Positions 18,496 through 57,614 of a DNA stretch of 63,496 nucleotides are shown here, in pieces. The notes beneath the pieces were generated by a model. That model made no database searches, was not told where the DNA came from, and saw only the letters and a program-made list of their open reading frames with translations. The stretch comes from an uncultured Gammaproteobacteria bacterium (GTDB taxonomy: Bacteria > Patescibacteriota > Patescibacteriia > CAYHVQ01). The position numbers were made by a program, and so were the translations under genes. The stretch is taken from the NCBI GenBank assembly GCA_964360435.1, contig CAYHVQ010000001.1:1-63496 (forward strand). Direction: 5' to 3'. Positions within the stretch are counted from its first letter, which is position 1. Every line of letters starts with the position of its first letter.

Positions 18496-18520
18496 GAGAT
18501 TTTTCTCACTGTTTTTTTCT

Positions 18521-18680: not shown

Positions 18681-19097
18681 GTGAATACCAAGCAGGTGGT
18701 GTTGGCGGGGATCGAGACGGCCGCGTTCGAAGTGTGCGAGGGGCTGTGGGCCATTTCGGCTCTGGCCCACCCGTGCATCTTCGAGTCGGGGGGCGAGCTC
18801 CCCCCGAACCCGGCGCTCGCCAAGGTCGTCAAGGCCGAGATGGCCGAGACGACCTTCGGGAAGGTGGGGAAGGCCACGCTCGTGGTGGCCGAGCCCCTGC
18901 CGGACCCTGCCGCCCTGGCCGCTCTGACGAAGTTCCGGGAGGAGTACCCGGACGTGAAGGTCGTGAGCTCCATGCTCTCGATCTCCGCGTTCCGTGGAGC
19001 CCTTCCGGGGCTCGTCGTGGGCCCGGTCGTCACGCCGGAGACCTGCCGTTCGGCGCCGGCCGACAAGCGGTGCTACCGGGATCGCTGGAGCTGCTAG
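18681..19097 (+). CDS. hypothetical protein (138 aa), GC-rich
   Basis: GTG start with an AGGGGAG SD; high GC3; no motif I recognise. Confidence 0.5.
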   Translation: MNTKQVVLAGIETAAFEVCEGLWAISALAHPCIFESGGELPPNPALAKVVKAEMAETTFGKVGKATLVVAEPLPDPAALAALTKFREEYPDVKVVSSMLSISAFRGALPGLVVGPVVTPETCRSAPADKRCYRDRWSC

Positions 19098-19447: not shown

Positions 19448-19468
19448 GGTTCTTGAAGGATGTGTTTA

Positions 19469-20089: not shown

Positions 20090-20149
20090 TTCCTTTTTCT
20101 GCGGCTTTGCAAACGCAAAGGTGCCGAGAAAGGACGGCATCAGCCAAGA
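20090..20149 (+). repeat. 60-bp direct repeat, right copy
   Basis: ttcctttttctgcggctttgcaaacgcaaaggtgccgagaaaggacggcatcagccaaga. Confidence 0.85.
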
Positions 20150-20230
20150 AATTTTTGGAGGAATGGTGCCGCGCTCCCGTCTCTTTCGGTGATCTTCTCT
20201 CGAGCTCGGGAGGAGGTTAGTGTTTGAGAT

Positions 20231-20430
20231 TCAACCACCACAAAATGCCATCACGTGAGGAGCGTGAGGCATGAACCACCACATCGGTCCGCGGAACAAA
20301 AGCCCAAAAGAGATCTTTGATGAGAGCTCTTTGGGGCGTGTCTTTTCTGTGGTGGTTAAGATGCGCTCTCAAAGGTTCTCATCCAAGCCCTCTTTCGGGA
20401 TTCCCCGTGAAGAGGGCTTTTGTTTTTTTT
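20231..20430 (+). ncRNA. candidate leader/sRNA element, copy 2
   Basis: AACCACCACA boxes at 20233 and 20274. tgtggtggtt (20348-20357) is a 10-nt complement. Shares cgtgag..gcatgaa, ctttgat.ag and gtg.tggtta.gat.cg blocks with copy 1. Ends in a terminator. Confidence 0.3.
20385..20430 (+). terminator. intrinsic terminator
   Basis: aagccctctt/aagagggctt 10-bp stem, then tttgtttttttt. Confidence 0.65.
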
Positions 20431-20497
20431 CGTCGAATTTCGGATCATGTTTCTGCAACAGGTTTTGAGTGGTGTCAAATGTCATTTTGTGAACAAT

Positions 20498-20569
20498 GTC
20501 ATCCTGAAGGCGAAGCCTGAAGGATCTCTTGTACAAGAGATCCTTCGTCGCCCTGCTCCTTAGGATGAC
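20498..20569. repeat. GTCATCC-hairpin family element (full palindromic pair)
   Basis: gtcatcctgaaggcgaagcctgaaggatctc-ttgtacaa-gagatccttcgtcgccctgctccttaggatgac. Confidence 0.65.
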
Positions 20570-20662
20570 ATAGAGGTGAAATGTGTTGCAGAGCCGTGAT
20601 CGTCACGTGCTCGTTGTCTTCGGCGCAGGTTGCGCCAACCCACCCCTACTAAGGAGGGTAAT

Positions 20663-21886
20663 GTGGGAATCAAAGTCGCCGTGGGTGGGCCTCCCCACTC
20701 CGGCAAGAGCGTCTTCCTTTCCCTCCTGCGCGGGCTGCTCCCTCGGGAGCAGTTTGCGATGGTGGAGGGGGCTCCGGACGGTGAGGGAATCACCGGCTGG
20801 AGTCACGAGGGGGACGCGGAACTTTCCCGCGCGATCCGGCGCAAGGGGAAGTTCTTGGTGGAGTTCGTGGACTGGGTCGCGCGATCCGTCCGGGGCTCCA
20901 CCGCCCCAGTCACGTTGGTTGACCTCGGCGGAATCCGCTCACCGGAAAATGAGCGGATCCTTCGGGAGTGCACGCACTTCATTGTGCTGGCCTCCCCGAA
21001 GTACGAGGCCGAGGTGGCTCCGTGGATCGACTTCGGCAAGGCGTGCGGGTGCGAACCCCTCGCCGTGTTGGAGTCGGTCCTGGAAGGGGCCGACGACGAG
21101 ATTTTTTCGGCGGGAACCCCGCTTCGCGCGCGGATCACGCGTCTCGATCGGGAAAACCCGCCGGTTGGGTCGCCGACCGCCCGCGCGGTGGCTCAAAGGA
21201 TTCTCGAGCTGGCGGGCAGGGGGAACGCCGAGGACACGGGCGAGGCGGACGCGGGGGCAAACTTCCCGCGCCTTGCCGAGCTCCTCGGTCTCCCGCTCCG
21301 GAATGGCGGTCCGGGGCGGGACTGGATCCCGAGTTGTCTCCCTCAGCTCCTTTCGGTGGTGCTCGCAGAGACTGCGGGTCAGCTGGAAGTGCGGCTGTGG
21401 GGGAACTGCTCGGCCGGGTTCCCCTACCATGCTCTCGCGTGCGCGGTCGCGGCGCGGGTGAGCTTCTACGACCCCAAATTGGCGGGGTACGTGGAGCTCC
21501 CTGCGCTCGCGATCGCGGGCGAGGGCAACAACCTCCTTGCGTGGCGGCGCGAGGAGAGGGATGACCACTCCCTGGTGGAGTACGGCATCCCGGGGCAGGT
21601 GTTCGACGTGCCGAACCTGCCCGTCGTCATTCCGCCCACCGTCCCCACCGACCGCGGTGTGGTGGTGTCCGGCAAAGGCCCCTGGTGGTTGACCGGGGCG
21701 ATTTGTCGGGCGTACCACCGCGCCAGCGTGGCGTGGGTGGCGGTGTTCACGCCGCAGGAGTCCGCGCGCCTTCTTGCCGACGGGCGCGCGTGGGCGGAGC
21801 TTCATCCCGGCTGTGGGCCGGCGGTTGTGGTCGCATCGCGCGACGCCGCTACCCCGGTCGGGACGGTTGTTCCGTTCCGGCTCTAG
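20663..21886 (+). CDS. P-loop NTPase fused to two Csx3-like (Crn3 ring-nuclease family) modules
   Basis: GTG at 20663 follows AAGGAGGG (the track ORF opens at TTG 20630). Walker A is GGPPHSGKS, with APDGEGITGW nearby. The first Csx3-like motif is VSFYDPKLAGYVEL. The second is RGVVVSGKGPWWL..YHRASVAWVAVF..AVVVASRD. For comparison, archaeal Csx3 as I recall it has GVVISGRGPIWL..VAVYDPRLGAVVV. Confidence 0.55.
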   Translation: MGIKVAVGGPPHSGKSVFLSLLRGLLPREQFAMVEGAPDGEGITGWSHEGDAELSRAIRRKGKFLVEFVDWVARSVRGSTAPVTLVDLGGIRSPENERILRECTHFIVLASPKYEAEVAPWIDFGKACGCEPLAVLESVLEGADDEIFSAGTPLRARITRLDRENPPVGSPTARAVAQRILELAGRGNAEDTGEADAGANFPRLAELLGLPLRNGGPGRDWIPSCLPQLLSVVLAETAGQLEVRLWGNCSAGFPYHALACAVAARVSFYDPKLAGYVELPALAIAGEGNNLLAWRREERDDHSLVEYGIPGQVFDVPNLPVVIPPTVPTDRGVVVSGKGPWWLTGAICRAYHRASVAWVAVFTPQESARLLADGRAWAELHPGCGPAVVVASRDAATPVGTVVPFRL

Positions 21887-21910
21887 ATCCCGCATCAAGT
21901 GCGGGATGAC
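21886..21910. repeat. GTCATCC-hairpin family element (inverted orientation)
   Basis: gatcccgcatcaagtgcgggatgac, starting in the stop codon of the upstream gene. Confidence 0.55.
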
Positions 21911-21999
21911 AGATCGGCTGGCCGGCGGTCATCTGACGAGAAAGTCGGCCGCTTCCGCAGGGCATGGGGATCCTCGCGGGAGTTGTACACCAATCCCTC

Positions 22000-22038
22000 G
22001 GCGAAACGACTGCACATCGTTTCGCCCTTCATCTTTTT
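22000..22038 (+). terminator. intrinsic terminator
   Basis: ggcgaaacga/tcgtttcgcc 10-bp stem, then cttcatcttttt. Confidence 0.6.
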
Positions 22039-22160
22039 GCGGATCGTTGGATCTGCCAAGAGATGAGGACACCTCACAAAAGCGATGCTGGTTGGCGCGC
22101 AAATGCCGCCGATCCATGATGGAGCCAGCTTCACTTTTGCATCCGAAAGGATGGGGCGCC

Positions 22161-22833
22161 ATGATGTGCGCCTGTTGCGGAAATTGTCCGGTTTTGGTCG
22201 AGGGGCTTTGCGCGTCCTGCGATAGGGACGTGCAGGAGTGGGACGCGGCCCACGGAGGCCGCGACCCGATGGCGGATCTGTACGACGAGGACGGGGAAAT
22301 GGAGCCCCCCCAGCCTCGAGCAGATCTTGCGGTCGGTCGAGGCGCTCGTGGCCCAGTGGCAGATTGCCCTGGGTCCGAGCGTCGAGGTCGTCCTCGGCTG
22401 GTCGCTGGTGTCCGGTCTCCTCATTCTTGACGAGGAGACGCGGGTGATCGACGTGGATGCTCGGTTCCTCGTCGAGAACCCGCAGGACCCGGCGCTCTGC
22501 CGGGCGGTCGAGGCCGCCACCGGCCTCCGATACCGCAAGACCATCACGGTCGGCGACTGGCCGGAAGGTCAGAGCGTCGGCGTGATGGTGGAGGGGTAGA
22601 TCACCCTCGCGGGCGTTCCGCTCCCGCTCGAGGTCGAGGGTTGCATCCGCAACCCGAAGTACGTCGGCTGGGGGCGGTTCTACCGAGAGGTTCTGACGCC
22701 GGAAGAATTGGAGGACTTCCGGCGTCGGAAAGTGGAGCTCCGCCACAACAAAGCGGAGTACAAGCGCATGAAGGCCAACATGCGCCTGGAGGTCGAGCGG
22801 CGGTGCATCGAGCGGGGGCTCGTGCAGCGTTAG
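22161..22833 (+). pseudogene. three collinear coding-like segments: disrupted small gene or coupled mini-ORFs
   Basis: Segment 1 is MMCACCGNCPVLVEGLCASCDRD..GEMEPP. The coding-like signal then moves to the next frame at a C7 run (22305-22311): SLEQILRSVEALVAQWQ..GVMVEG. TAG follows at 22597-22599. The same frame then continues protein-like (ITLAGVPLPLEVEGC..RGLVQR) to TAG at 22831-22833, with no ATG/GTG/TTG near its start. Confidence 0.3.
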
Positions 22834-23069
22834 CTCTTGCGAGTCGGCTTGGCGCGCGAGGCGTCATCAGGGAATGATCCCATCCTCGCGCCGCGGTTTT
22901 GGAACACGGGCCAATCCGCGGACAGCACACCCTGTGGGGAAGGTAAGCGTTTTTCACACACGACTTACCCCCCCCTCTCTTAGAACACCGAAAGAGCCGC
23001 GATGTTTTGAGAGAGGGGAATGGCGATGGATTCCAACCGCGGTCAGTAATGGCCGCAAGAAAGGACGAC

Positions 23070-23882
23070 ATGAAAGACGTGATCATCCACGTCACGCCGG
23101 ATCTGGACGCCTGCATGTGCGTCGCGCTTTCGGGCGCGGACGTACAGGCCGTCCATTTCGTGCCAGCGGGCGCGCCGGAAATTCCGGCCGTCTGCCCGTG
23201 CTGTGGTTCGCGGCTGTCCGGTGCCGAGCGCGTCCTGGATCACCCCTTGGGTGAGAAAGGTCGGCTCGACCCAGACGGCACGCGTCACGCAGCTGCGTGC
23301 TCGATGCCGGAGGCCGCGAACGCGGATCCTAGGCTCCTCGAGGAGGTGGAGGAGCAGGATTCCACGGGACGGATTCTCCAGCCGCGGATCCCGCTCCCGC
23401 GGGTTCTGGCGGCGATCCGCACCGAGGCGCGGAACCGCGGACTGCGGGGAGTCGAGCTCGACCGCGAGGTCGTGACCGCGATGACCCGCGTTCTGCGGGG
23501 ACTCAACCTCCTCCACACTGCGCGCGGGGACGCCTTCGAGGTGGCCTCGCGCGCGCGGATCGAGACGGTTGGCGGCTTCAAGGTCGCCGTCCTCCCGGTT
23601 GGCGGCCAAGCGCCGCAGGTGGGGTTCGTGCTCGAGGAGGAGTTCGGGGTATCGTGCGCGATCTATGCCGACGGGTTTGCCCGCGGCATCTCGCGCTACC
23701 CCGGACACAACGAGCCGGACTTGCGCCGCCTCACGCCGTTCCTTCGCGGGTGGTTCGTCCACACCGCGGGGTTCCTGGCGTGTTGGGGCTCTCGCAAGAG
23801 CCCGGCCACGTCCCCGCCCCCCTCCGGAACGCCGCAAACGCAGGAGGAGCTCCTCGAGCTTCTTCGCCGCGTTTTCGGTTAG
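23070..23882 (+). CDS. hypothetical protein, DHH/MYG1(UPF0160)-like N-terminus (weak)
   Basis: Start at MKDVIIHVTPDLDACMCVAL (H..D.DA, as in DHH/MYG1 motif I), then VLDHPLGEKGRLD. Alignable by eye with the low-GC ORF 54702-55907. Confidence 0.5.
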   Translation: MKDVIIHVTPDLDACMCVALSGADVQAVHFVPAGAPEIPAVCPCCGSRLSGAERVLDHPLGEKGRLDPDGTRHAAACSMPEAANADPRLLEEVEEQDSTGRILQPRIPLPRVLAAIRTEARNRGLRGVELDREVVTAMTRVLRGLNLLHTARGDAFEVASRARIETVGGFKVAVLPVGGQAPQVGFVLEEEFGVSCAIYADGFARGISRYPGHNEPDLRRLTPFLRGWFVHTAGFLACWGSRKSPATSPPPSGTPQTQEELLELLRRVFG

Positions 23883-24049
23883 CCGGTCTTGCCGTGCGCC
23901 TGCGGGATTCGTGCGGAGTTTACTCCAAACGATCCTGTGGGCGCACGGCACTCTTCTTGTGTTGGTCTCTCTCTTTTTGAAATGGTGAGGCCGACATCAG
24001 CTGGAGAAACTCAACTGCCGCGGGAATCCCTGCGGCAAAGGAGAGTCAG

Positions 24050-25258
24050 ATGGACGCGATTCTGTCCAAGGCGGTTGCTCTTGCCGCCAGCATCAAGAGC
24101 ATTACTGCCGATGTGTGTGCCCGTCACATCGGCCGCCAGGACGTGGTTCACGCCACGCTCTTGGCGCTCGTTTCGGGCCGTCCGGCATTTTTCCTCGGAA
24201 CGCCGGGCGTGGACAAGACTGGAACGGTCGAGTCGCTGGCGGATCGGATTGTGGGCGCGAAGTTTTTCAACGCGCTCATGCCGACCATGACCAGCGCGGA
24301 CCACCTTCTGGTGGAGTCTACGCGGATCGAAGAGGAGCCCACTGCGAGCGGCGGAAAGTCCGTCCGCATTCGCGGTGAGCTGGGTCGCGCCGCGGCCGCG
24401 CACATCGTCTTTGCAGATGAGATCTGGAAGTCGGAGCCGTATGTGCTCCAGACGCTTCTGGACCTCGCCAAAGGCGGCGGGGTGCGGCACGAAGGCGCGA
24501 ATGTGCGGACGCCGCTCCTTGCGTTTTTGGCGGCGTCGAATGAGCTCCCGGACTCCGAAGGGAACTTGGGCGCGGTGTGGTCTCGCATGACCCTCCGCGT
24601 TCCGGTGCGTTCCCTGGATCGGGGCGGGAAGCTCCAGCTCGTGTCGTCTCGGCTGGCGCATGGCCGCTCGGCGAGCAACAGCAACACGGTTTCGGCCGTG
24701 ACGCTGACGCTCGACGAGGTGGCCGTGCTTCGCGCCGGGCGGACGCACGTCATCGTGTCCGATGAGATTGTCGAGAGCGTGTTGGGAATCTACCAACAGC
24801 TCCTCGAAACTCACACCGACGGCACGTTCCAGTGGCTCTGGGACGACGACCGTCGCTTCGGGCGCGTGTTTGATATTTTGCAGGCCGAGGCCCTGCTTTC
24901 GGGACGAACTGTGGTAGCCAAGTCGGACCTTCGGGTGCTGAAGTGGCTGCTGTGGGACACCCCCGAGCAGATCGCCGCGGTCGAGGCCGTGCTCGCGCCG
25001 CTGTGCCGGACTCCGGCAAGCGAGGCGCGCGAGATGGCCGATGCCCTCCTGGCCGCAGGGGGTGTCGTGGATAGCTTCTTGTCTGGCGCGTCCGAGCGCA
25101 TCACCGATTCCTTGCGCCAGTGCAAGGATGCGGCTGACCAGCTCGAGCAGCTCGCAACCCAAGCGACGGGGAGCGAGGCGGACCTGGTCCGCGCGGTGCT
25201 CGACGAGGTGCGTGGAGTCCGGCAGCGTGTCGCCAACAAGGCTGCCGGGATCGAGTAG
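24050..25258 (+). CDS. RavA-like MoxR-family AAA+ ATPase
   Basis: AAGGAG SD. Walker A LGTPGVDKT, Walker B HIVFADEIWK, LLDLAKGG, sensor AASNELP. Collinear with E. coli RavA as I recall it. Confidence 0.75.
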   Translation: MDAILSKAVALAASIKSITADVCARHIGRQDVVHATLLALVSGRPAFFLGTPGVDKTGTVESLADRIVGAKFFNALMPTMTSADHLLVESTRIEEEPTASGGKSVRIRGELGRAAAAHIVFADEIWKSEPYVLQTLLDLAKGGGVRHEGANVRTPLLAFLAASNELPDSEGNLGAVWSRMTLRVPVRSLDRGGKLQLVSSRLAHGRSASNSNTVSAVTLTLDEVAVLRAGRTHVIVSDEIVESVLGIYQQLLETHTDGTFQWLWDDDRRFGRVFDILQAEALLSGRTVVAKSDLRVLKWLLWDTPEQIAAVEAVLAPLCRTPASEAREMADALLAAGGVVDSFLSGASERITDSLRQCKDAADQLEQLATQATGSEADLVRAVLDEVRGVRQRVANKAAGIE

Positions 25259-25273
25259 CCCCAAGGAGGAGAG

Positions 25274-26995
25274 ATGGACGCGAAAAAAAACATCGCTCCT
25301 CCGCTCGCCCCGGGGGAGTTGCTTCCAGCGATGGTGTCCGAGGCGGATGTGTTTACCGTCCTCGGCTACTGCCGCACGCGGGAGCAGACTCCCGCAATTT
25401 GGGAGCTCGAGAAGAATGGGGCGAAGGTGTTGCCGGGGGTGACTGCCGCCCTGGGTGACACGTACAACGTGTTGTGGTCCGAGGAGGCAGGACTCAAGCC
25501 CTCGGATCAAGTTCCTCCCAGCCGTCAGTATTGGCGCGGGATGCTCGGAGAAACGGTCGAGACGGCCGCGTTTGAAGAGCTCCATGCCAAGACACGCGGA
25601 GACCGCGTGTTGGCGATGGCGGGAACGATTGAAGCCGCCCGAACCATCCTGCGGCTCGTTTCCGCGGATGACGCGGAACAGCTCGAGCGCGTGGCAGAGG
25701 CAGACGCCGAAGCCGACCAGCTCGAGCAAACGGCGCAGGATGCCCAGGCCGAGGCCGACGCTCTGCAGGAGCTTTGCGACCAGATGATGGCGCAGGCTCA
25801 AGCAGGCGGGGGCCAATGTCCTGGCGAGAAGGCGGACGGCACGGCAGATGGCGCTCCCCAGTCCGGCAACGGTTCACCTTCGGGTGCGCCGAAGGCCGGC
25901 CGCGGGTCGCTTACGGTGGCGCAGGCTCAAGCGCTTGCGGACAAACTTGCTCAAGCGAAAGCGCGAGTGGGTGACGTCCGGGCGCAGGCCGATGTCGCAC
26001 ACCAGCACGCGCAAGCCGAGGCCGACGCGCTCATGGGGAAACCTGGGAGCGCAGAGGCAGAGGCGAAAATGCGCGAGTTGGCACGAGCGGGGCACGCGGC
26101 TCTGGCCGAGGCGGGGAAGGTGGTCGAGGAGCTGTCCGAGACCATCGAGGCCTGGGGCTTGGAGCGCGGGGAACTGCATCAGATGGAGGTGCCCGAGGCA
26201 TTCGGGCTACTCCAGAAGATGCGGAAAAACCGTGCCTTCGAGTCCTTTGCGCGGCTCTTGGGCCGGCTGCGAGCAATCGCGGCCAAAAAGGCCCGGAGCG
26301 AAAGCCGCGCGGAAGGCCGGCGCGTGCCGCAACCCGAGCGCGGGCGGGACATTGCCCGCGCGCACGTAAGCGAGTTGGCCGCGCTCACGCATCCCGCCAC
26401 CCGCATCCCGGCGCTTCAACGCTGGATGCGGGGGGAGCTTCGGCTTCACGGCATCCGATCTCGGCGACCGCTGGGAGAGGGGCCTGTGATCGTCTGCGAG
26501 GACGCCTCCGGTTCGATGGACGGCGCCAAGCAGCAGTGGGCCAAGGGCGTGACGCTCGCTCTGGCCTGCTACGCCAAGCTGCGGCGCCGCGCGTTTGGTT
26601 GGATTTTGTTTGACGCGGTGGTTCACCGTGCCGAGCATTATCCGGCCGGGCGTGTGGGCGCACGCCAAATGCTCCAGATCGCCGAGGCGCGGGCCGGCGG
26701 AGGGACGAACTTCGAGCAGCCGTTTCGTCGCGCAGTGGCCATGATTGCACGGGAAGGCCTGAAGAAGGCCGACATCGTGCTGGTCACTGACGGCGACTGC
26801 GCGGTCTCGGAGGCGTTCCTCCAAGAGCTTTCGGCCGCCAAACGGGCGCATGAGTTCTCGGTGCTCACAGTGATCTGTGATGTCCCGGGAACACATGTGA
26901 CTGATGCGGCGGTCCGGCTCTTCTCGGAGCGCGTCGAGCGCGTTTCCGCCTTCACGGCAGAGGAGGCGGAGCAGAAGGTCTTTCGCAACCTGTGA
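25274..26995 (+). CDS. ViaA-like VWA-domain protein
   Basis: AAGGAGGAG SD 16 nt after the AAA+ stop. C-terminal VWA with MIDAS residues VCEDASGSM, GGGTNF, LVTDGD. Long Ala/Gln/Glu-rich coiled-coil-like middle region. Confidence 0.7.
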   Translation: MDAKKNIAPPLAPGELLPAMVSEADVFTVLGYCRTREQTPAIWELEKNGAKVLPGVTAALGDTYNVLWSEEAGLKPSDQVPPSRQYWRGMLGETVETAAFEELHAKTRGDRVLAMAGTIEAARTILRLVSADDAEQLERVAEADAEADQLEQTAQDAQAEADALQELCDQMMAQAQAGGGQCPGEKADGTADGAPQSGNGSPSGAPKAGRGSLTVAQAQALADKLAQAKARVGDVRAQADVAHQHAQAEADALMGKPGSAEAEAKMRELARAGHAALAEAGKVVEELSETIEAWGLERGELHQMEVPEAFGLLQKMRKNRAFESFARLLGRLRAIAAKKARSESRAEGRRVPQPERGRDIARAHVSELAALTHPATRIPALQRWMRGELRLHGIRSRRPLGEGPVIVCEDASGSMDGAKQQWAKGVTLALACYAKLRRRAFGWILFDAVVHRAEHYPAGRVGARQMLQIAEARAGGGTNFEQPFRRAVAMIAREGLKKADIVLVTDGDCAVSEAFLQELSAAKRAHEFSVLTVICDVPGTHVTDAAVRLFSERVERVSAFTAEEAEQKVFRNL

Positions 26996-27024
26996 GGTCG
27001 GGTCTGCCAACCCGTCTCACCTTC

Positions 27025-27070
27025 CCCCGCACCCATACGCAAGTGTGTGGTGCGGGGCTTCTTCTCTTCG
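27025..27070 (+). terminator. terminator-like hairpin
   Basis: ccccgcacc/ggtgcgggg 9-bp stem, 15-nt loop, C-interrupted T tract cttcttctcttcg. Confidence 0.4.
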
Positions 27071-27150
27071 TCGTGAACACATCTCGTGTTCGTGGCGAGA
27101 AGATCAAGTTTGAGCCGCTCCGTTCGCGGAGCATGGGAGGGAGGTGAGTC

Positions 27151-28701
27151 ATGGTCGAAGAGCTGATCGTCACGCTGACTGCCGAGCGCGGCAGGAAGTT
27201 TGATGAGACGCAGGAGGCCATCGCCTCCTACCGTGCCAGCGAGCGGGCGCGGCACGCCTCGATCGTCTTCATGCCCCGTGGAACCGAGCCCGAGAAAAAC
27301 TATCGGGTTCGGCTGCAGGCGATCCGCGAGGACGCCAGTGGCCGGATGATGTACCGCGGGGCTCCTGCCAGCCCGGAGTTTTCCGAGCGCTGGCACGACA
27401 ACGGCGACGGGACGATCGCCCTCGCGACCATCTGCACGGACTGGAAGCTGAACGAGTCCGTGTTTGGGGAGCGGGAGCGGAGGCCCAAGGATCGCCGGAC
27501 GATCAAAACCACGGTCGTTTCCAACCCTCGACTGGTTCTGGGGGCGGACATGGCGTCCTCGTTCGTTGAGGATACGCCGGTCCAGCGCCTCGTGGACCAG
27601 GAGGAGGCCGTGGAGAGCGGCGCGGTCGTGTGGCGCGCGGTTTCCAACCGCGAAGAAGATCTCCCGAGGGTGCAATATCCCATCAGGGAGATCGAGGTGA
27701 CGACGGAGTCCGAGTGGTGGCAACACCGCTTGGATCCCACGTACCGCGCGGTTTGGAAGATCACTGCCACTGCAGTCTACGACGCTGGCGGCACCAGTAC
27801 CACGGCAAAAATTGCCATTCCATGCACCACATGGATGGATTTGCCGGGCTGGTGTCGGCGGGAGCTGGAGGAGCGTTTTACGCTCTGTTCCTGCGCCCGC
27901 AGTCGAGTAGATTTGTTGGCAGATGCTGCGGTCTGTACTTCGTGTCAAAGCGAGGCAAGTCAGATCGCGGATATTGAGGCGGGTCTTCCGCCGGCCCGCC
28001 GCGAGACGTTTGCGGGTGAAGCGCGCGCGTTGTTGGCTGGCGTTTGTTTCTCGCAGGCGGTTGGGGAGGAGATTGCGAGCGCTCTGGCCACGGGAGATAG
28101 CCGAGAGTTTGCGGCCACGGAAGTGAAGGGTTACCCCTTCTACTACCGCACGGCTGACGGCGTGTTCGGGTCGAAGTTTTCCCCCGAGGCACTGGAGCTC
28201 TTCGCGAATCTTCCGGCGGCTCGCGGTCGCGGACTCGTCCGCTTGGCTGCGTGGCTCTCGGATGCCCACCGGCGGAGCGAGGTGGAGGCGCGGGATTACT
28301 ACTTCCGGACCCAAACGGCCGGAGCGGTGATTCCCTTTCCCACACTCTCGCCCGATGTCCTCGGCCGCGCAATCCTTGCGGTGCGGGTCGTGGACCTTGT
28401 TGGTTTTCGCCGGCGGCAGGAGCGGGCGGCGCGGCGATCCGAGCCCGTGGTTGTCCCGGACGGTCCCTTCCGTCCGATCGGCAGCCGCGAGTTTCATTGT
28501 CCGTCCGGTCACAGCGTTCGGCTCACAAAGAGTGAGTTCCGGACGTATGAGACCGGCGAAACCGTTCACATTTCTTGTTCGCTTTGCGCATCCTCCGGCT
28601 TGGTGCGGAAGGAGCGTTTGCTGACCGAGACGGCGGGCGCAAGCGACGAGGAACTCATGGCGGCGAAGATCAACCAGCTTCGGAAGAAATGGTTGAGATA
28701 G
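27151..28701 (+). CDS. hypothetical protein (516 aa) with Cys-pair zinc-ribbon-like motifs
   Basis: GGGAGGGAGG SD. CSCARSRVDLLADAAVCTSC, and a C-terminal FHCPSGH..ISCSLC. No family recognised. Confidence 0.6.
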   Translation: MVEELIVTLTAERGRKFDETQEAIASYRASERARHASIVFMPRGTEPEKNYRVRLQAIREDASGRMMYRGAPASPEFSERWHDNGDGTIALATICTDWKLNESVFGERERRPKDRRTIKTTVVSNPRLVLGADMASSFVEDTPVQRLVDQEEAVESGAVVWRAVSNREEDLPRVQYPIREIEVTTESEWWQHRLDPTYRAVWKITATAVYDAGGTSTTAKIAIPCTTWMDLPGWCRRELEERFTLCSCARSRVDLLADAAVCTSCQSEASQIADIEAGLPPARRETFAGEARALLAGVCFSQAVGEEIASALATGDSREFAATEVKGYPFYYRTADGVFGSKFSPEALELFANLPAARGRGLVRLAAWLSDAHRRSEVEARDYYFRTQTAGAVIPFPTLSPDVLGRAILAVRVVDLVGFRRRQERAARRSEPVVVPDGPFRPIGSREFHCPSGHSVRLTKSEFRTYETGETVHISCSLCASSGLVRKERLLTETAGASDEELMAAKINQLRKKWLR

Positions 28702-28720
28702 CCGCAGAGAGGAGAATCTC

Positions 28721-28761
28721 GGGGAGCTCTGCTTGCGCATCACGCCGGCATCTCCCCACCC
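28721..28761 (+). repeat. 41-45-nt hairpin repeat, copy 1
   Basis: ggggagctctgcttgcgc..catctccccaccc. The 18-nt and 13-nt blocks are identical to those in 30713-30757. Confidence 0.8.
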
Positions 28762-28898
28762 ATCTTTATGATGTTGTCTCTTCATCACACTTCTGGAGCG
28801 GATCAGCTCTGATCCTTTCGAGAAGCGTCATGAGCGCAATCCGGAATTTCTGCAAGGCGCAGGAAACGGGATTTTGTTCAGACGCGGGAGACACGGAA

Positions 28899-30005
28899 AT
28901 GTTGAATCGTGCAGAACTGTGTGACCTCGCGGCGCGCGTTCTTCCGGCCGACCTGGTGTCGGCAGTGGAGCGTTCGTTCTGGACCCCCCAGTTCGGCCCC
29001 AACCACAATGAGGGCCCGTACATGGACAGCCACCTTTCGCTCGTCATCGAAACCCTTGAGAAAATTTCTCGGGGTAAGGTGAGGAGGGTGGTGCCGGTGG
29101 TGGCGAGGCACATGATGGTGATGGCTGTACGCGAGTACGGCCTGGTCACATGTCGTATCTACGCGCTGCTCCACGACGTCGCGAAGCAGGACTGCATGAC
29201 CCTCGTCTACGCCGACGGCCGCAAGGTCGCGGTGACGTGGAACGAGTGGCAGGCAATCCTCTTTGATGGCGGGGAGAGCGGCTGTGCTTCGCTCGTGGGC
29301 GACGGTGACGCGCAGACTCGGTTCTGCCAGGAGCAGGGGATCGAGAAGATCTCCTACTTCCAGAAGACCGAGAACGGCCAGCGCGCTCACGGGCGCGTGG
29401 CGGCCGAGTGGCTCCGCGGCCGGACGGACATCCCCGGGCTGGTCGTTCGGGCGATCGAAACCCACGAGATCGCCTACCAGTTCGGCGGGAAGGGTGGGAT
29501 TAACCTCCCGCTCTTCGAGAAGACGTTCGGCGGCTGGACCGAGGCCGAGGTCGGATTCGCACTGGCTGTCAATTACGCCGATCAGATGGCATCGCTCGAC
29601 ACCACGGGAAAGCCTGTGATCGAGGATGTTGTTTGGTTGGCGAGGACGGCTCTGGCGGCTCGGGACCTCGCGACGCTTTCGGCTCGCCTCGAGGCCACGC
29701 CGCAACTGGACGTGGCCAGGGTCGAGAAGGCCCTCGTTGCCCTGAACGGGTCCCGAGCCGCCTTCCAGACCGAGACGGTCGAGCAGGTGTACGCGCGGAT
29801 CGTGGCCGAGTGTCGCCTCCCGGAGGTGACCGAGGTCCAGATCCGGGACGCGCTCGTTCCGGTGGTCGAGGCGGGGCTTTCGGACGAGCTGACCGACCGG
29901 ATCGTCATCGAGATGGTGGCGAACGGAAAGCTCTCGGCCGAGACCGGAAAGGCGCTGGGCGGGTTCAACCGCCTCGTGCGTCCGGCCCTGGCCAAGCTGG
30001 GCTGA
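28899..30005 (+). CDS. HD-domain-like phosphohydrolase (weak)
   Basis: ALLHDVAKQD with His residues upstream and downstream (MDSHLS, RAHGRV, ETHEIA). Start taken at the ATG with a GGGAGA SD. ATG 28830 is possible. The track start at 28575 overlaps the upstream gene. Confidence 0.45.
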   Translation: MLNRAELCDLAARVLPADLVSAVERSFWTPQFGPNHNEGPYMDSHLSLVIETLEKISRGKVRRVVPVVARHMMVMAVREYGLVTCRIYALLHDVAKQDCMTLVYADGRKVAVTWNEWQAILFDGGESGCASLVGDGDAQTRFCQEQGIEKISYFQKTENGQRAHGRVAAEWLRGRTDIPGLVVRAIETHEIAYQFGGKGGINLPLFEKTFGGWTEAEVGFALAVNYADQMASLDTTGKPVIEDVVWLARTALAARDLATLSARLEATPQLDVARVEKALVALNGSRAAFQTETVEQVYARIVAECRLPEVTEVQIRDALVPVVEAGLSDELTDRIVIEMVANGKLSAETGKALGGFNRLVRPALAKLG

Positions 30006-30019
30006 TTCGACTACAATTC

Positions 30020-30056
30020 GGGAAGGTCGCGGCGCAGAATTGCCCGCGGCCTTCCC
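30020..30056 (+). other. 13-bp intergenic hairpin
   Basis: gggaaggtcgcgg/ccgcggccttccc (one G-U pair), 11-nt loop, no T tract. Confidence 0.6.
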
Positions 30057-30098
30057 AAACAACGCCCGCCGCATCCGCGGTCGGGCAAGGATACTGAA

Positions 30099-30698
30099 AT
30101 GAAAAAGCAATGTGGAGGCGGAGAGATCCGCCTCATCTGCGCCGACATCTTGTCGGCCTTCTACGCGTTGACGGTCGGGACGAAAGTCACCGACCCCGAG
30201 CGGTTCCTTGCGGCGTTTCCGGCCGCAATCGCCGCCCACGATCCCACCACCGACCGCGTTCCGGGACAGCACTTCATCGTGCTTTCCCCGGAGTTTCGGG
30301 CGTGGGTCTCGGCGGGCGTCGGGCGTCGGACGCAGGATCCGGCCGACTACGTCCTGCGAACGCACCGCGGCGGGGTCTCGGCGTTCCTGCACCGCAGGCT
30401 GGCCGCCGGGGTCGAGGGGGTTGCGGTCGTGGTGTACACCGCCGCCGCGTACCTCGCCGACCCCGAGGTCAACGAGTCCGAAAACGAGTCGGCACGCGTC
30501 CGCGAAAGCGGCGCGACGCACGTCATTGTCGCGGTCCTCGCCTTTGCCGGGCCGCAGGCGCCCTTGACCCCCCACCGGCTGGTTTCCAACCTCGCCGGAG
30601 GGAACAAGGAGGCGTTGACCTGGAGTGCGGACGAGATCCGCGCCAAGGCGAAGGCGGTCGCGGGCTACTGGGACGACTGGGAGGTCGTCGCAGATTAG
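30099..30698 (+). CDS. hypothetical protein (199 aa)
   Basis: AAGGA SD, high GC3, no motif recognised. Confidence 0.55.
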   Translation: MKKQCGGGEIRLICADILSAFYALTVGTKVTDPERFLAAFPAAIAAHDPTTDRVPGQHFIVLSPEFRAWVSAGVGRRTQDPADYVLRTHRGGVSAFLHRRLAAGVEGVAVVVYTAAAYLADPEVNESENESARVRESGATHVIVAVLAFAGPQAPLTPHRLVSNLAGGNKEALTWSADEIRAKAKAVAGYWDDWEVVAD

Positions 30699-30712
30699 TC
30701 CGACAAAAAAAA

Positions 30713-30757
30713 GGGGAGCTCTGCTTGCGCGAAATCCGCGTCAGCATCTCCCCACCC
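30713..30757 (+). repeat. 41-45-nt hairpin repeat, copy 2
   Basis: ggggagctctgcttgcgcgaaatccgcgtcagcatctccccaccc. It is preceded by A8, so on the minus strand it reads as hairpin plus T8 (terminator-like). Confidence 0.8.
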
Positions 30758-31321
30758 TACACGAGTACAGGAAGAGCTGAGTGGAATCTGTCCTTTGGAA
30801 ACAAAGCACACTTTCCACTTGGCACTCTCTCCTTCCTGTGCTCATGCGGGGTTTGTGGAGGGATATCACGCCAAAGGAGACGGCATGCTGAAGCCCAGTT
30901 GCTTCGCGAGGCGACGGCGTCGCTGGTTCGGGATACGGCGAAGGATCCCGCGACCGCTCTTGAGAAAGGGGCTACGGCGCGCATCGCCGAGGTTCATCTC
31001 CTTGAGGGAATGCAAGACCGGCTTGGGCGGATCGAGCGGAGGTAGTGTATGGAGGCCGTGGAGGAGGTGCGACATCTGCCATCTGCGTCGGGCGGGATCG
31101 GGAAGAGCGCTGTCGAGATCACAATCGGAGATGGAGTTGTTCCTAGAGGCTCTGTTCGCTGGGTCCTTTGCTAGTTGTGAGCAGGAACCCAAGTACAGGA
31201 TTTTTGAGAGAATGAGGGGTGTCTTGGATCTCCTTCATGTTTCTCCGCCGGCAAACGAGCGCGATGATGTGTGTTTTCTTCTGATCGCAGGAGCTTACAG
31301 CCTCACACATTATGTCGAGGC

Positions 31322-57606: not shown

Positions 57607-57614
57607 GTGTGCAG

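What the first reader, a model, noticed from the sequence alone, without database searches (positions are those of the whole stretch)
20498..30757. Orphan GC-rich gene island combining Csx3-like, DHH/MYG1-like, RavA-ViaA, zinc-ribbon and HD-like proteins: candidate undescribed system
Seen in sequence: eight co-oriented coding units with strong SD sites, internal terminators (22000, 27025) and private hairpin repeats. I find no cas genes, CRISPR array, integrase, transposase or phage structural genes. Established knowledge: Csx3/Crn3 proteins cleave cyclic tetra-adenylate and were first described as RNA deadenylases. MoxR-family AAA+ plus VWA pairs form the core of NTP-dependent ternary conflict systems. 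Comparative-genomics work (Aravind group) also reports them in Ro60/RtcB-type RNA-repair operons. HD and DHH folds are phosphoesterases acting on nucleotides or RNA ends. Inference: I do not recognise this combination as any named defence or repair system. It could be a signalling-nucleotide or RNA-3'-end-directed conflict or repair module, possibly working with the tRNA-like RNA region upstream.
Basis: partly seen in the sequence, partly recalled or inferred. Interest (0 to 1): 0.8.

Follow-up and report, generated by a model that had tools for sequence, protein, structure and literature searches.

The report
Cas-less CRISPR-type signalling genes plus MoxR-VWA
A GC-rich, laterally acquired 10-kb block in a Patescibacteria (CPR) chromosome joins two genes normally tied to type III CRISPR signalling (an AAA-Csx3 sensor and a new DHH-fold phosphodiesterase family) to a phage-related MoxR-VWA ATPase pair with its own zinc-ribbon partner; it is a rare, undescribed gene neighbourhood, not a tight eight-gene operon.

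Summary
Window 20.6-30.7 kb is 62-69% GC against about 52% in the flanks. It carries eight co-oriented coding units separated by significant hairpins, with no cas gene, CRISPR array or integrase found. The host is a Patescibacteria MAG.

The domain calls hold: AAA-Csx3, DHH fold (p270), RavA/ViaA-like MoxR-VWA, and HD. Three corrections apply:
- The "zinc-ribbon" unit is a broken gene.
- The Csx3 domain lacks three residues conserved in ring nucleases, so it is probably a sensor.
- The block is modular.

MoxR-VWA-p516 is a tight triad, conserved in about six loci; p516 has four other homologue clusters among 5.8 billion proteins. AAA-Csx3 and p270 recur upstream of it. HD and p199 form a loose cassette bracketed by a 47-nt hairpin repeat, and p199 lies without the other island genes in 101 other loci.

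The main new result is that p270 relatives sit inside type III-D2-like and next to III-B cas operons, and also in phage-like contigs. That distribution matches signal-degrading "off-switch" enzymes such as NrN and ring nucleases.

Best reading (confidence 0.4): a cas-less, nucleotide-signal-linked conflict module built on a MoxR-VWA ternary core. The main rival is a mosaic of independent cassettes. I rate it a new variant of known kinds, interest 0.6.

The parts
20663..21886 (+). AAA-Csx3: an N-terminal P-loop NTPase domain (GPPHSGKS, CPDGEG, LVDLGG motifs) fused to a C-terminal Csx3 domain with a degenerate catalytic site. Predicted adenylate-signal or RNA sensor.
   Evidence: PADLOC C3a67 AAA-Csx3 5.7e-52 and Pfam Cas_csx3 1.2e-10. 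phmmer to A. fulgidus Csx3 structures gives 4.5e-5; H60 is kept, but H57 is R, D69 is T and R71 is Q. Relatives in L014, L012 and L015 are equally degenerate.
22107..22832 (+). Disrupted gene: an N-terminal CxxC...CxxC zinc ribbon plus a domain of unknown kind. It is broken by a frameshift at a C7 run (22305-22311) and by an in-frame TAG (22597-22599).
   Evidence: The GC3 frame profile and the translations show this. L001 has the same frames. There is no Pfam hit and no homologue in any fetched locus.
23070..23882 (+). p270: a DHH/DHHA1-fold phosphoesterase of an unannotated family. Predicted phosphodiesterase for a nucleotide second messenger or a short oligonucleotide.
   Evidence: AF2 pLDDT is 95.5. 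Foldseek hits include NrnA, NrN bound to SAM-AMP, RecJ, PPase II and PAP phosphatase, with probability up to 0.96 and TM 0.25-0.35. H7, D11 and D13 are invariant; D57 and H58 are nearly invariant. There are 87 homologue clusters. Relatives sit in type III cas operons.
24050..25258 (+). MoxR/RavA-like AAA+ ATPase, 402 aa, without a LARA domain.
   Evidence: Pfam bpMoxR 5.7e-18, AAA_lid_8 4.2e-12, AAA_5 1.1e-10. NCBIfam RavA 5.6e-29, below the curated cut-off. phrog_19600 8.4e-34. Walker A GTPGVDKT, Walker B FADE and sensor-1 ASN are visible in the sequence.
25274..26995 (+). ViaA/CoxE-like VWA protein: a helical, low-complexity N-terminal half and a C-terminal VWA domain with an intact MIDAS motif (DASGS...T...D).
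   Evidence: Pfam VWA_CoxE 1.3e-9. NCBIfam ViaA 8e-12, below the cut-off. phrog_24053 1.2e-41. The start codon lies 16 nt after the MoxR stop.
27151..28701 (+). p516: the private third partner of the MoxR-VWA pair. It has a conserved N-terminal domain, an invariant CxC...CxxC zinc ribbon, a conserved helical GSKFSPEALEL region and a second C-terminal zinc ribbon.
   Evidence: Only four other homologue clusters exist among 5.8 billion proteins. It lies directly downstream of VWA in L006-8, L009-10, L011 and L014. No Pfam, PHROG, PADLOC or PDB match was found.
28899..30005 (+). HD-superfamily phosphohydrolase of an unannotated family (161 clusters at 50% identity). Its motifs resemble the HD domain of CCA/A-adding enzymes.
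   Evidence: An exhaustive HMMER search was run. H36, E38, H45, H92, D93, H164 and D228 are invariant. PF01966 is hit by 9 of 49 members. The best PDB match is the HD region of the A. aeolicus A-adding enzyme, E = 0.0018.
30099..30698 (+). p199: a distant DUF3228-like protein, widespread in Patescibacteria and in phage-like contigs. Biochemical function unknown.
   Evidence: More than 344 homologue clusters at 50-70% identity. AF2 pLDDT is 94.5. Foldseek matches 4fbd and 2pd0 with probability 1.0 and TM about 0.5. Two members hit DUF3228 weakly. It sits next to the HD-like gene in L130, with a relic of the pair in L014.
28719..28762 (+). Copy 1 of a 47-nt hairpin repeat (GGGGAGCTCTGCTTGCGC...GCATCTCCCCACCC), just after p516.
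   Evidence: z = -3.3.
30711..30758 (+). Copy 2 of the same hairpin repeat, just after p199. The two copies bracket the HD + p199 pair.
   Evidence: z = -5.2. The repeat occurs only in this genome among all fetched loci.
18681..19097 (+). p138: a small GC-rich ORF in the same variable region. It is linked to the island genes by co-occurrence elsewhere.
   Evidence: A homologue lies between Csx3-AAA and p270 in L012 (8.5e-8). Homologues lie directly after p199 in L026 and L027.

Best explanation
The block is a laterally acquired, lineage-restricted gene neighbourhood. It sits in a variable locus of a Patescibacteria chromosome, between a trmB-like regulator and prxQ. It is built from three linked modules.

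(i) A type III-CRISPR-style nucleotide-signal module without cas genes. AAA-Csx3 has a degenerate ring-nuclease site, so it most likely binds an adenylate signal (cA4-like) or an RNA 3' end rather than cleaving it. p270 is a DHH-fold phosphodiesterase that most likely hydrolyses such a signal, acting as an off-switch in the way NrN and the ring nucleases do.

(ii) A RavA/ViaA-like MoxR AAA+ ATPase and VWA adaptor with a private zinc-ribbon partner, p516. This is a ternary core in which ATP-driven remodelling by MoxR, delivered through the VWA MIDAS domain, would load, release or activate p516.

(iii) A loosely attached cassette of an HD phosphohydrolase and a DUF3228-like protein, bracketed by a hairpin repeat.

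Taken together, it most likely acts as a nucleotide-signal-linked conflict module (defence, or regulation of defence) that no longer depends on an adjacent Cas10.

Shown: composition, gene anatomy, domain and fold identities, residue conservation, and the gene-neighbourhood network. Inferred: ligand identity, which component is the effector, and that the modules act together.
For: Lateral origin and location:
- GC is 62-69% against 52% in the flanks.
- The same genes are GC-rich against low-GC flanks in L006, L009, L011 and L130.
- The host is a Patescibacteria MAG with housekeeping flanks.
- A close relative, L014, which shares RecA at 90% identity or more, carries a rearranged version.

Ternary core:
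- MoxR-VWA-p516 are adjacent in the window, L006-8, L009-10, L011 and L014.
- MoxR and VWA are 59-87% identical among these loci. p516 is only 29-60% identical, so the third partner evolves fastest.
- L012 keeps MoxR-VWA with a different 534-aa third gene.

Link to Csx3 and p270:
- AAA-Csx3 lies directly upstream of MoxR in L014.
- L012 has Csx3-AAA, a p138-like gene, p270, MoxR, VWA in that order.
- L015 has AAA-Csx3 followed by p270.

p270 as a type III-associated phosphodiesterase:
- It has a DHH fold, and its hits include NrN bound to SAM-AMP.
- In L016 and L022 its start or stop codons abut or overlap those of neighbouring genes in operons of RAMP-fusion proteins (L021 carries the same gene cluster). 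These proteins match type III-D2 and Cas7-11 structures.
- In L131 it lies 1.7 kb from Cas10/Cmr3/Cmr4/Cmr5 and a CARF protein.
- It also occurs in phage- or MGE-like contigs.
- NrN and ring nucleases are known off-switches with this kind of distribution (PMC10600005, PMC7371418, PMC13294483).

Other points:
- The Csx3 catalytic residues are lost.
- Walker A/B, MIDAS and HD motifs are intact.
- Neighbours typical of defence islands are present: VapBC, HepT/MNT and an AAA_14/DUF4143 ATPase.
Against: - No Cas10, CD-NTase or other signal synthase lies in the window or in L012 or L014.
- Terminator-like hairpins separate the modules.
- p199 never accompanies the other genes in 101 loci.
- p270 stands without MoxR-VWA in every Planctomycete, III-B and phage-like locus.
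- The MoxR-VWA subfamily is common in phages without any of the other genes.
- The co-occurrence evidence comes from few, related and mostly short metagenomic contigs, so shared ancestry inflates it.
- One island gene is a pseudogene, which hints at decay.
- There is no experimental datum for any protein.
Confidence: 0.4

Rival explanations
1. It is a mosaic, not a system. The region is a recombination hot spot (variable or defence island) that has collected independently acting, laterally transferred cassettes: orphaned type III ancillary genes, a phage-derived MoxR-VWA-p516 unit, an HD/p199 cassette, toxin-antitoxin pairs and a pseudogene. Proximity reflects the insertion site, not joint function.
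For: - Hairpins or terminators follow AAA-Csx3, p270, VWA, p516 and p199, and a 47-nt repeat brackets HD+p199.
- Gene order and content differ between close relatives (window against L014, with HD/p199 relics).
- p199, p270, the HD-like gene and the MoxR-VWA pair each occur without the others in many loci.
- One gene is broken.
- REP-like palindromes are enriched in the region.
- TrmB marks the same hot spot in L014 and L130.
Against: The same partners recur in different orders and at different divergence: AAA-Csx3 with MoxR-VWA in three loci, p270 with Csx3 in three, p516 with HD in L128, and p199 with HD in L130. That is more than a single shared insertion would give. All the enzymes share a nucleotide or phosphoester theme.
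Confidence: 0.3
2. It is a counter-defence island of a mobile element. Enzymes that bind or destroy immune second messengers (a Csx3 sponge or sensor, a DHH phosphodiesterase, an HD hydrolase) are carried by an integrated or decayed phage or MGE, together with a phage MoxR-VWA chaperone pair. They blunt type III CRISPR or CBASS-like signalling.
For: - p270 relatives occur in IMG/VR and phage- or MGE-like contigs.
- The MoxR-VWA subfamily is found in 39 IMG/VR contigs and two jumbo phages.
- p199 lies in 21 IMG/VR contigs.
- Some HD-like family members carry tape-measure or holin domains.
- Viral ring nucleases and SAM-AMP lyases set a precedent (PMC7371418, PMC12255297).
- The foreign GC content fits.
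Against: - No integrase, structural or replication genes lie in or beside the island.
- The locus is chromosomal and syntenic in a relative.
- GenBank phages have no p516, HD-like or p199 homologue.
- Some IMG/VR calls on large contigs may be misassigned cellular DNA.
Confidence: 0.12
3. It is an RNA-end healing or repair module. A P-loop NTPase acts as a kinase. HD and DHH phosphoesterases heal 2',3'-cyclic-phosphate or 3'-phosphate ends or trim 3' tails. Csx3 acts as an RNA 3'-end binder or deadenylase. p199 is an unknown partner, and MoxR-VWA is the chaperone, as proposed for Ro60/RtcB operons.
For: - The HD motifs resemble the HD domain of CCA/A-adding enzymes.
- In other loci p199 recurs next to calcineurin-like phosphatase (13 loci) and AAA_33 kinase (8 loci) genes, a Pnkp-like healing pair.
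- A PolyA_pol/CCA-type gene lies downstream of the triad in L009.
- Csx3 was first described as a deadenylase (cited in PMC7371418 and PMC7159879).
Against: - No ligase (RtcB, Rnl, Pnkp ligase), Hen1, Ro60/TROVE or archease was found.
- The AAA-Csx3 P-loop domain matches no kinase family.
- The Csx3 active site is degenerate.
- The upstream tRNA-like elements are recognised by neither ARAGORN nor Rfam.
- The CRISPR-operon context of p270 points to signalling instead.
Confidence: 0.12
4. It is a remnant of a phage assembly-chaperone system. MoxR-VWA acts as a chaperone and co-chaperone for a structural or other client (p516), as in Acidianus two-tailed virus. The other genes are unrelated.
For: - Strong PHROG hits.
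- A weak tblastn hit to the ATV VWA co-chaperone.
- The literature proposes assembly roles for the ATV pair and for a jumbo-phage MoxR-vWA pair with a peptidase fusion (PMC7824862).
Against: - No virion genes are nearby.
- In the 39 viral loci the pair sits among replication- and recombination-type genes and never with p516.
- The triad is kept intact in several cellular-looking loci.
Confidence: 0.05

Closest known systems
MoxR-vWA-centred ternary conflict systems (VMAP, iSTAND, FtsH and beta-propeller types; Kaur, Burroughs, Iyer and Aravind 2020, PMC7159879)
   Same: A MoxR AAA+ gene is followed directly by a vWA gene, and then by a conserved third component that diverges faster. The Pfam bpMoxR model matches. 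The cluster has defence-island-like neighbours. A Csx3 domain was reported once as an effector in those systems.
   Different: The third component, p516, matches none of VMAP, iSTAND, FtsH or beta-propeller. Here the VWA domain is C-terminal with no effector domain after it, whereas in those systems effectors are fused C-terminally to vWA. The lid and best equivalog are RavA/ViaA-type. The host is a unicellular, small-genome CPR bacterium, whereas those systems are enriched in multicellular prokaryotes.
E. coli RavA-ViaA
   Same: These are the best NCBIfam models for both proteins. The AAA_lid_8 domain matches, as do the gene order and the architecture of a helical N-terminus plus a C-terminal VWA.
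   Different: Scores are far below the equivalog cut-offs (101 against 681 bits; 45 against 500 bits). There is no LARA domain (402 aa against 498). The partners differ: there is no LdcI, Nuo or Frd context.
Phage MoxR-VWA pair (phrog_19600 / phrog_24053; Bacillus phage 0305phi8-36 gp66/gp63; Moorella phage MTATph1)
   Same: This is the closest broad relative of the pair, at 25-35% identity. The MoxR-then-VWA order is the same in 35 of 39 IMG/VR loci.
   Different: The phage loci lack p516, Csx3, p270, HD and p199 even by HMM search, and they sit among replication- and recombination-type genes.
AAA-Csx3 / Csx3-AAA type III CRISPR accessory proteins (clusters 67 and 35 of Shah et al. 2018, PMC6546367) and the Crn3/Csx3 ring nuclease (PMC7371418)
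   Same: It is a full-length match to the PADLOC C3a67 AAA-Csx3 model (residues 16-379, 5.7e-52). The Csx3 core motif SG[KR]GPxW is kept, as is H60.
   Different: No cas genes are nearby. H57, D69 and R71 are replaced, and D69A abolishes while R71A strongly reduces ring-nuclease activity in AfCsx3. It scores below the NCBIfam Crn3 cut-off (26.9 against 55.4 bits).
NrN, the DHH-family SAM-AMP phosphodiesterase of CorA-type type III CRISPR systems (Chi et al. 2023, PMC10600005), and the NrnA/GdpP/PggH nanoRNases
   Same: p270 has the DHH/DHHA1 fold, and NrN bound to SAM-AMP is among the top structural hits. The family is encoded within or beside type III operons, including III-D2-like ones, a subtype shown to make SAM-AMP (PMC13294483).
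   Different: About 10% sequence identity and TM-scores of only 0.25-0.35. Motif III reads DHP rather than DHH. No CorA-like membrane protein was seen next to p270. The substrate is unknown.
Pnkp/Hen1 and RtcB-type RNA repair operons
   Same: They share a phosphoesterase plus P-loop theme. p199 lies next to Metallophos and AAA_33 genes in other loci.
   Different: No ligase, methyltransferase, Ro60 or archease is present.

Membership tests
Crn3/Csx3 ring nuclease | Csx3 domain detectable by a family model | tested here: met
   Pfam PF09620 scores 41.6 bits against a cut-off of 21. Several PADLOC Csx3 models match.
Crn3/Csx3 ring nuclease | Residues H57, H60, D69, R71 (H80 could not be aligned), described as absolutely conserved or catalytic in PMC7371418 | tested here: not met
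   The phmmer alignment to AF_1864 keeps H60, but H57 is R, D69 is T and R71 is Q. The relative in L014 also loses H60. It also scores below the TIGR02579 cut-off.
Type III CRISPR accessory AAA-Csx3 (C3a67) | P-loop domain followed by a Csx3 domain, matching the family model over its full length | tested here: met
   PDLC01059 at 5.7e-52; residues 16-379 match positions 7-359 of a 382-position profile.
Type III CRISPR accessory AAA-Csx3 (C3a67) | Encoded next to a type III cas cassette | tested here: not met
   No cas gene or array in the 63-kb window, nor in L012 or L014.
MoxR-vWA ternary conflict systems | Adjacent MoxR AAA+ and vWA genes | tested here: met
   bpMoxR, AAA_5 and AAA_lid_8 for MoxR; VWA_CoxE and VWA_2 for the VWA protein; a 16-nt gap between the genes.
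MoxR-vWA ternary conflict systems | Third core component of a described type (VMAP, iSTAND, FtsH or beta-propeller) | tested here: not met
   p516 has no Pfam, PADLOC, PHROG or PDB match. A conserved third gene does exist, but it is of a new kind.
MoxR-vWA ternary conflict systems | Variable effector domains fused C-terminally to the vWA component | tested here: not met
   The VWA domain (residues about 389-528) reaches almost to the C-terminus of the 573-aa protein.
RavA-ViaA | Equivalog-level similarity and the RavA LARA domain | tested here: not met
   101.5 bits against a 681 cut-off, and 45.1 against 500. The match covers only positions 4-312 of the 498-position RavA model.
DHH/DHHA1 phosphoesterases (NrnA, NrN, RecJ, PPase II) | Two-domain DHH/DHHA1 fold | tested here: met
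   The model has pLDDT 95.5. The Foldseek hits down to about E = 0.1 are nearly all DHH-family proteins (the rest are the DHHA1-type C-terminal domain of alanyl-tRNA synthetase), with probability up to 0.96-0.99. TM-scores are low, at 0.25-0.35.
DHH/DHHA1 phosphoesterases (NrnA, NrN, RecJ, PPase II) | Metal-binding motifs I-IV (DxD, D, DHH, D) | tested here: inconclusive
   H7, D11 and D13 are invariant; D57, H58, H73, D97 and D131 are nearly invariant. Motif III reads DHP, and no residue-level superposition was made. No Pfam DHH or DHHA1 hit.
MYG1/UPF0160 | Match to the UPF0160 family model | tested here: not met
   No Pfam or NCBIfam hit of any kind for p270.
HD-superfamily phosphohydrolases | H...HD...H...D metal-binding signature and a match to the family model | tested here: met
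   H45, H92, D93, H164 and D228 are invariant across 49 members. PF01966 is hit by 9 members, though not by the window protein itself.
DUF3228 | Match to PF11539 or to its solved representatives | tested here: inconclusive
   Foldseek probability 1.0 and TM about 0.5 to 2pd0 and 4fbd. Only 2 of 33 family members hit PF11539, at 0.0024.
RNA repair operons (RtcB/Pnkp-Hen1/Ro60) | Presence of an RNA ligase or Ro60/TROVE protein | tested here: not met
   None appeared among the island proteins in Pfam, NCBIfam or PADLOC scans.

The most novel reading that the evidence does not exclude
Two linked claims. First, p270 founds a new family of type III CRISPR-associated DHH phosphodiesterases that switch off an adenylate second messenger (SAM-AMP, SAM-AMP2 or cOA). 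Second, in Patescibacteria this enzyme and a catalytically dead AAA-Csx3 sensor have been rewired to control a new MoxR-VWA-zinc-ribbon ternary effector that works without a neighbouring Cas10. That would make it a stand-alone, signal-gated AAA+ conflict system in ultra-small symbiotic bacteria.
Probability: 0.2. Interest if true: 0.8.

Novelty: new variant of a known kind. Interest (0 to 1): 0.6.

Why it matters
CPR/Patescibacteria have tiny genomes and few recognised immune systems, so a 10-kb foreign block devoted to nucleotide and phosphoester enzymes plus an AAA+ machine is a large investment.

The work gives three directly testable leads:
1. p270 is an unannotated DHH-fold family embedded in type III-D2-like and III-B operons. 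It is a candidate new off-switch, or anti-CRISPR when phage-borne, for SAM-AMP or cOA signalling.
2. p516 is a fifth kind of third component for MoxR-vWA ternary systems.
3. The Csx3 domain here is degenerate and fused to a P-loop NTPase. It may show how ring nucleases become sensors.

If the modules turn out to be independent, the value drops to three orphan protein families and a well-documented variable locus.

Tried and rejected
- A TRAM-like RNA-binding domain at the p516 N-terminus. This was suggested by the pattern G.AIA...vF.P.g.pG..y.V. hhalign against a recalled RlmD TRAM sequence gave probability 0.5%, and the PDB profile search gave only a weak eL37 zinc-ribbon match. Dropped.
- A nucleotidyltransferase identity for the disrupted gene at 22107-22832, suggested by a GS...DxD-like motif. 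No Pfam hit even at E = 5. Dropped.
- A kinase identity for the AAA-Csx3 P-loop domain. No Pfam hit at E = 0.1. Unresolved.
- Integron-like cassettes. The hairpins lack the attC R/L box consensus and no IntI is present. Judged by eye only.
- Known RNAs in the upstream region 16.2-20.7 kb. An Rfam E-value scan gave only chance-level miRNA and leader hits, and ARAGORN found no tRNA there.
- GenBank phage searches with p516, HD-like and p199 found nothing.
- IMG/VR scans with single VWA and Csx3 proteins found nothing because the patterns were too specific. The HD alignments were too divergent to give scan patterns.
- Fold search of p199 against viral structures gave nothing significant.
- Cas10 and Cmr proteins from L131, and the RAMP proteins from L016 and L022, were searched against all other loci. 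No hits outside those three Planctomycete loci, so the CRISPR link of p270 does not extend to the window, L012 or L014.
- No structure prediction was run for p516.

Full report
**1. What is there**

The window is a chromosomal piece of a Patescibacteria (CPR) metagenome-assembled genome. Exact matches of flanking proteins are named RecA, UvrC, UvrD-helicase and ABC transporter from a "Patescibacteria group bacterium". The same locus occurs on a Hainich groundwater contig. Flanking genes are housekeeping: FtsK, YchF, SHMT and a TrmB-type regulator on the left; PrxQ, Elp3 and phosphoglucomutase on the right.

Between TrmB (15361-16248, minus strand) and PrxQ (31322-31909, minus strand) lies a 15-kb variable region. 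Its right-hand 10 kb is the reported block. GC there is 0.62-0.69 in every 1-kb bin from 21 to 31 kb, against about 0.52 elsewhere.

The + strand carries the following genes:
- AAA-Csx3 (20663-21886)
- a disrupted gene (22107-22832)
- p270 (23070-23882)
- MoxR (24050-25258)
- VWA (25274-26995)
- p516 (27151-28701)
- an HD-like protein (28899-30005)
- p199 (30099-30698)

Stable hairpins follow AAA-Csx3, p270, VWA, p516 and p199, with z-scores from -3.3 to -6.3 against shuffles. The hairpins after p516 and p199 are two copies of one 47-nt element that brackets HD+p199. That element is found only in this genome among all loci I fetched. No CRISPR array, Rfam family or tRNA is present in the region.

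The small "zinc-ribbon" unit is one gene broken twice. The zinc-ribbon frame looks protein-like up to a C7 run at 22305-22311. From there the high-GC3 signal (0.86-0.92) continues in another frame, across an in-frame TAG at 22597, and on to 22832. A second assembly has the same reading frames.

**2. Identities**

*AAA-Csx3.* It matches the PADLOC model for the type III accessory family C3a67 over its full length (5.7e-52) and Pfam Cas_csx3 (1.2e-10). I aligned it to the A. fulgidus Csx3 structures and read it against the mutational study of that enzyme (PMC7371418). H60 is kept, but H57 is R, D69 is T and R71 is Q. D69A abolishes ring-nuclease activity in AfCsx3, and R71A strongly reduces it. 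The relatives in L014, L012 and L015 are equally degenerate. So I treat this Csx3 domain as a ligand-binding module, not a nuclease. The P-loop domain matches no Pfam family.

*MoxR and VWA.* MoxR hits bpMoxR, AAA_lid_8 and AAA_5, and the RavA equivalog far below its cut-off. VWA hits VWA_CoxE and VWA_2, and ViaA below its cut-off. Walker A (GTPGVDKT), Walker B, sensor-1 and the MIDAS motif (DASGS...T...D) are intact in the sequence.

*HD-like.* The window protein has no Pfam hit itself. An exhaustive HMMER search found 161 representative relatives. They share invariant H36, E38, H45, H92, D93, H164 and D228, and 9 of 49 hit PF01966. The best PDB match is the HD region of the A. aeolicus A-adding enzyme.

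*p270.* It has 87 homologue clusters and no family annotation. Its AlphaFold model (pLDDT 95.5) retrieves almost only DHH/DHHA1 proteins: NrnA, NrN bound to SAM-AMP, RecJ, family II pyrophosphatase and PAP phosphatase. Probabilities reach 0.96, but TM-scores are low at 0.25-0.35. H7, D11 and D13 are invariant, and D57 and H58 are nearly so. MYG1 membership was not shown.

*p199.* It has more than 344 homologue clusters at 50-70% identity, several named as Patescibacteria. Its model (pLDDT 94.5) matches two apicomplexan hypothetical proteins, 2pd0 and 4fbd (probability 1.0, TM about 0.5). Two family members hit DUF3228 weakly.

*p516.* It has four other homologue clusters among 5.8 billion proteins and no match in any library. 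The alignment shows a conserved N-terminal domain, an invariant CxC...CxxC zinc ribbon and a conserved helical region.

**3. Do the genes belong together?**

I rebuilt the neighbourhoods of every relative I could fetch.

The triad MoxR-VWA-p516 is adjacent in four further sets of contigs (L006-8, L009-10, L011, L014). MoxR and VWA are 59-87% identical among these loci, and p516 only 29-60%, so the third gene evolves fastest.

L014 comes from a close relative; its contig also carries a RecA at least 90% identical. Its order is p199, AAA-Csx3, MoxR, VWA, p516-like (630 aa), then a 426-aa unknown, with relic fragments of HD and p199 elsewhere in the locus.

L012 is more distant, with MoxR 32% and VWA 31-41% identical. 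Its order is HD_4, Csx3-AAA (the domains in opposite order), a p138-like gene, p270 (64% identical), MoxR, VWA, then a different 534-aa gene.

Further links:
- L015, a Saccharibacteria MAG, has AAA-Csx3 followed by p270.
- L128 has a p516 C-terminus, a 152-aa gene, then the HD-like gene.
- L130 has TrmB, p199, then the HD-like gene.
- L026 and L027 have p199 followed by p138.

In these loci the genes are again GC-rich against low-GC flanks.

Against a single system:
- In 101 p199 loci from metagenomes and IMG/VR, none of the other island genes is present.
- p270 has no MoxR-VWA next to it in the Planctomycete, III-B and phage-like loci.
- 39 IMG/VR contigs carry relatives of the VWA, and 35 of them have the MoxR gene upstream of it. 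None has any of the other genes, even by HMM search.

The structure is therefore modular: a tight triad, two frequent partners (AAA-Csx3 and p270), and a loose HD/p199 cassette.

**4. The unexpected link**

In three Planctomycete loci (L016, L021, L022) p270 follows a co-oriented run of genes. The run is a 600-aa protein, two RAMP-domain proteins of about 790 and 575 aa, a 248-aa protein, and an 880-aa protein. In L016 and L022 the start or stop codon of p270 abuts or overlaps that of its neighbour. The 880-aa protein matches solved TIGR03986-family RAMP and Cas7-11 structures by phmmer, and the 800-aa RAMP protein matches a chain deposited as "Cas7-Cas5-Cas11". From memory and from the match to 9wxh, I take these chains to be type III-Dv/D2 effector subunits.

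In L131 a 65%-identical p270 lies 1.7 kb from Cas10, Cmr3, Cmr4, a Cmr5-FtsK-like fusion and a CARF protein. Other relatives sit in dense small-ORF, phage- or MGE-like contigs (L132, L134) and in IMG/VR contigs.

So 7 of about 13 p270 loci with usable flanks have a type III-related neighbour (cas genes or Csx3). This cellular-CRISPR-plus-virus distribution is the one known for ring nucleases and for NrN and the SAM-AMP lyases (PMC7371418, PMC10600005, PMC12255297). Type III-D2 complexes were recently shown to make SAM-AMP and SAM-AMP2 (PMC13294483).

The cas proteins of these loci have no homologues in the window, L012 or L014. In the CPR loci, AAA-Csx3 and p270 are therefore orphaned from cas genes.

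**5. Mechanism**

Best reading (confidence 0.4): the block is a laterally acquired, nucleotide-signal-linked conflict module. AAA-Csx3 binds an adenylate signal or an RNA end without cleaving it. p270, and perhaps the HD enzyme, hydrolyse the signal. The MoxR ATPase, acting through the VWA MIDAS adaptor, remodels or activates the zinc-ribbon protein p516. This is analogous to the described MoxR-vWA ternary conflict systems (PMC7159879), but with a new third component and a RavA/ViaA-like, phage-related pair.

Shown: anatomy, folds, motifs and neighbourhoods. Inferred: the ligand, the direction of control, and that the modules cooperate.

Rivals:
- A mosaic of independent cassettes in a recombination hot spot (0.3). 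Hairpin-bounded units, rearrangements, a pseudogene and the promiscuity of p199 favour this.
- A counter-defence island of a mobile element (0.12).
- An RNA-end healing module (0.12). p199 elsewhere neighbours calcineurin-like phosphatase and AAA_33 kinase genes, and the HD motifs are CCA-enzyme-like. But no ligase is present.
- A phage assembly-chaperone remnant (0.05).

**6. Comparison and novelty**

No membership in a named system is met in full:
- Ring nuclease: the catalytic residues are not met.
- C3a67 accessory family: the architecture is met, the cas adjacency is not.
- MoxR-vWA ternary systems: the pair is met, the third component and the vWA effector fusions are not.
- RavA-ViaA: far below the cut-offs.
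- DHH family: the fold is met, the motifs are inconclusive.
- HD superfamily: met.

I rate it a new variant of known kinds, namely type III ancillary signalling genes combined with a MoxR-vWA ternary core, and not categorically new. Interest is 0.6, mainly for the p270 family as a testable new CRISPR-associated phosphodiesterase, and for a new ternary partner in CPR bacteria.

**7. Limits**

- The evidence rests on few, mostly short and related metagenomic contigs.
- IMG/VR "viral" calls on large contigs may include cellular DNA.
- Only the 63-kb window of the genome was visible.
- p516 was not modelled.
- Nothing here is experimental.

Noticed in passing
L016:289-12444, L021 and L022 (Planctomycete MAG loci); L131:2054-11571: p270 relatives follow type III-D2-like cas gene runs (two RAMP-fusion proteins and an 880-aa TIGR03986/Cas7-11-like protein). 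In L016 and L022 the p270 start or stop codon abuts or overlaps a neighbouring gene. In L131 a relative sits beside a III-B Cmr cassette that also has a CARF protein and a Cmr5-FtsK/HerA-like fusion.
   Followed up: partly
L025-L125 (101 p199 loci): The DUF3228-like p199 family is scattered over genomes of 28-69% GC and over IMG/VR contigs. Its recurrent neighbours are a calcineurin-like phosphoesterase (13 loci), an AAA_33 kinase (8), a topoisomerase IB (8) and a DUF6011 protein (8). This hints at a role in nucleic-acid end processing in phage-like elements.
   Followed up: partly
ARAGORN and Rfam do not recognise them.
   Followed up: partly
window 18310-18500 and 20228-20420: Two similarly organised structured segments of about 190 nt, each beginning ...TTCAACCACC... 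and ending in a strong terminator-like hairpin with a T run. One follows p87 and the other follows the VapBC cassette. They may be repeated non-coding RNA or terminator modules.
   Followed up: no
window 19388-19460 and 20090-20162: A 73-nt direct repeat (90% identical) brackets the VapC (PIN) toxin-antitoxin cassette at 19469-19840 (minus strand). This suggests the cassette was inserted as a unit.
   Followed up: no
window-wide; 8 of 15 copies lie at 16.8-21.9 kb: The octamers TGTCATCC and GGATGACA occur 15 times against about 1.8 expected. They form the ends of long palindromes such as 20496-20571 (z = -8.3). This is a REP- or MITE-like element enriched in the variable region.
   Followed up: partly
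window 22107-22832: A gene is disrupted by a frameshift at a C7 homopolymer and by an in-frame TAG, yet GC3 stays at 0.86-0.92 across both. It is either a recent pseudogene or a case of slippage or read-through.
   Followed up: partly
L001:6873-8081: In the Hainich contig the MoxR gene is called as two pieces (70 + 323 aa), whereas it is intact (402 aa) in the window. This is either an assembly error or a strain-level frameshift.
   Followed up: no
L135-L173 (IMG/VR loci): The phage MoxR-VWA pair is preceded in 24 of 39 loci by a conserved unknown gene of about 325 aa. It is often followed by AAA_24-like ATPase and PD-(D/E)XK-like genes (judged by eye from the sequences), so it sits in a replication or recombination neighbourhood rather than a virion one.
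   Followed up: no
window 56000-58000: A second GC-rich patch (0.60-0.63). It contains a 487-aa ORF (56031-57494) with no Pfam hit, next to a 1094-aa NHL/FG-GAP repeat protein.
   Followed up: no
window 24200-24226 (MoxR residues 51-59): The Walker A motif reads GTPGVDKT, with Asp where MoxR and RavA proteins usually have Ala or Gly (from memory). I did not check whether this is conserved across the clade.
   Followed up: no
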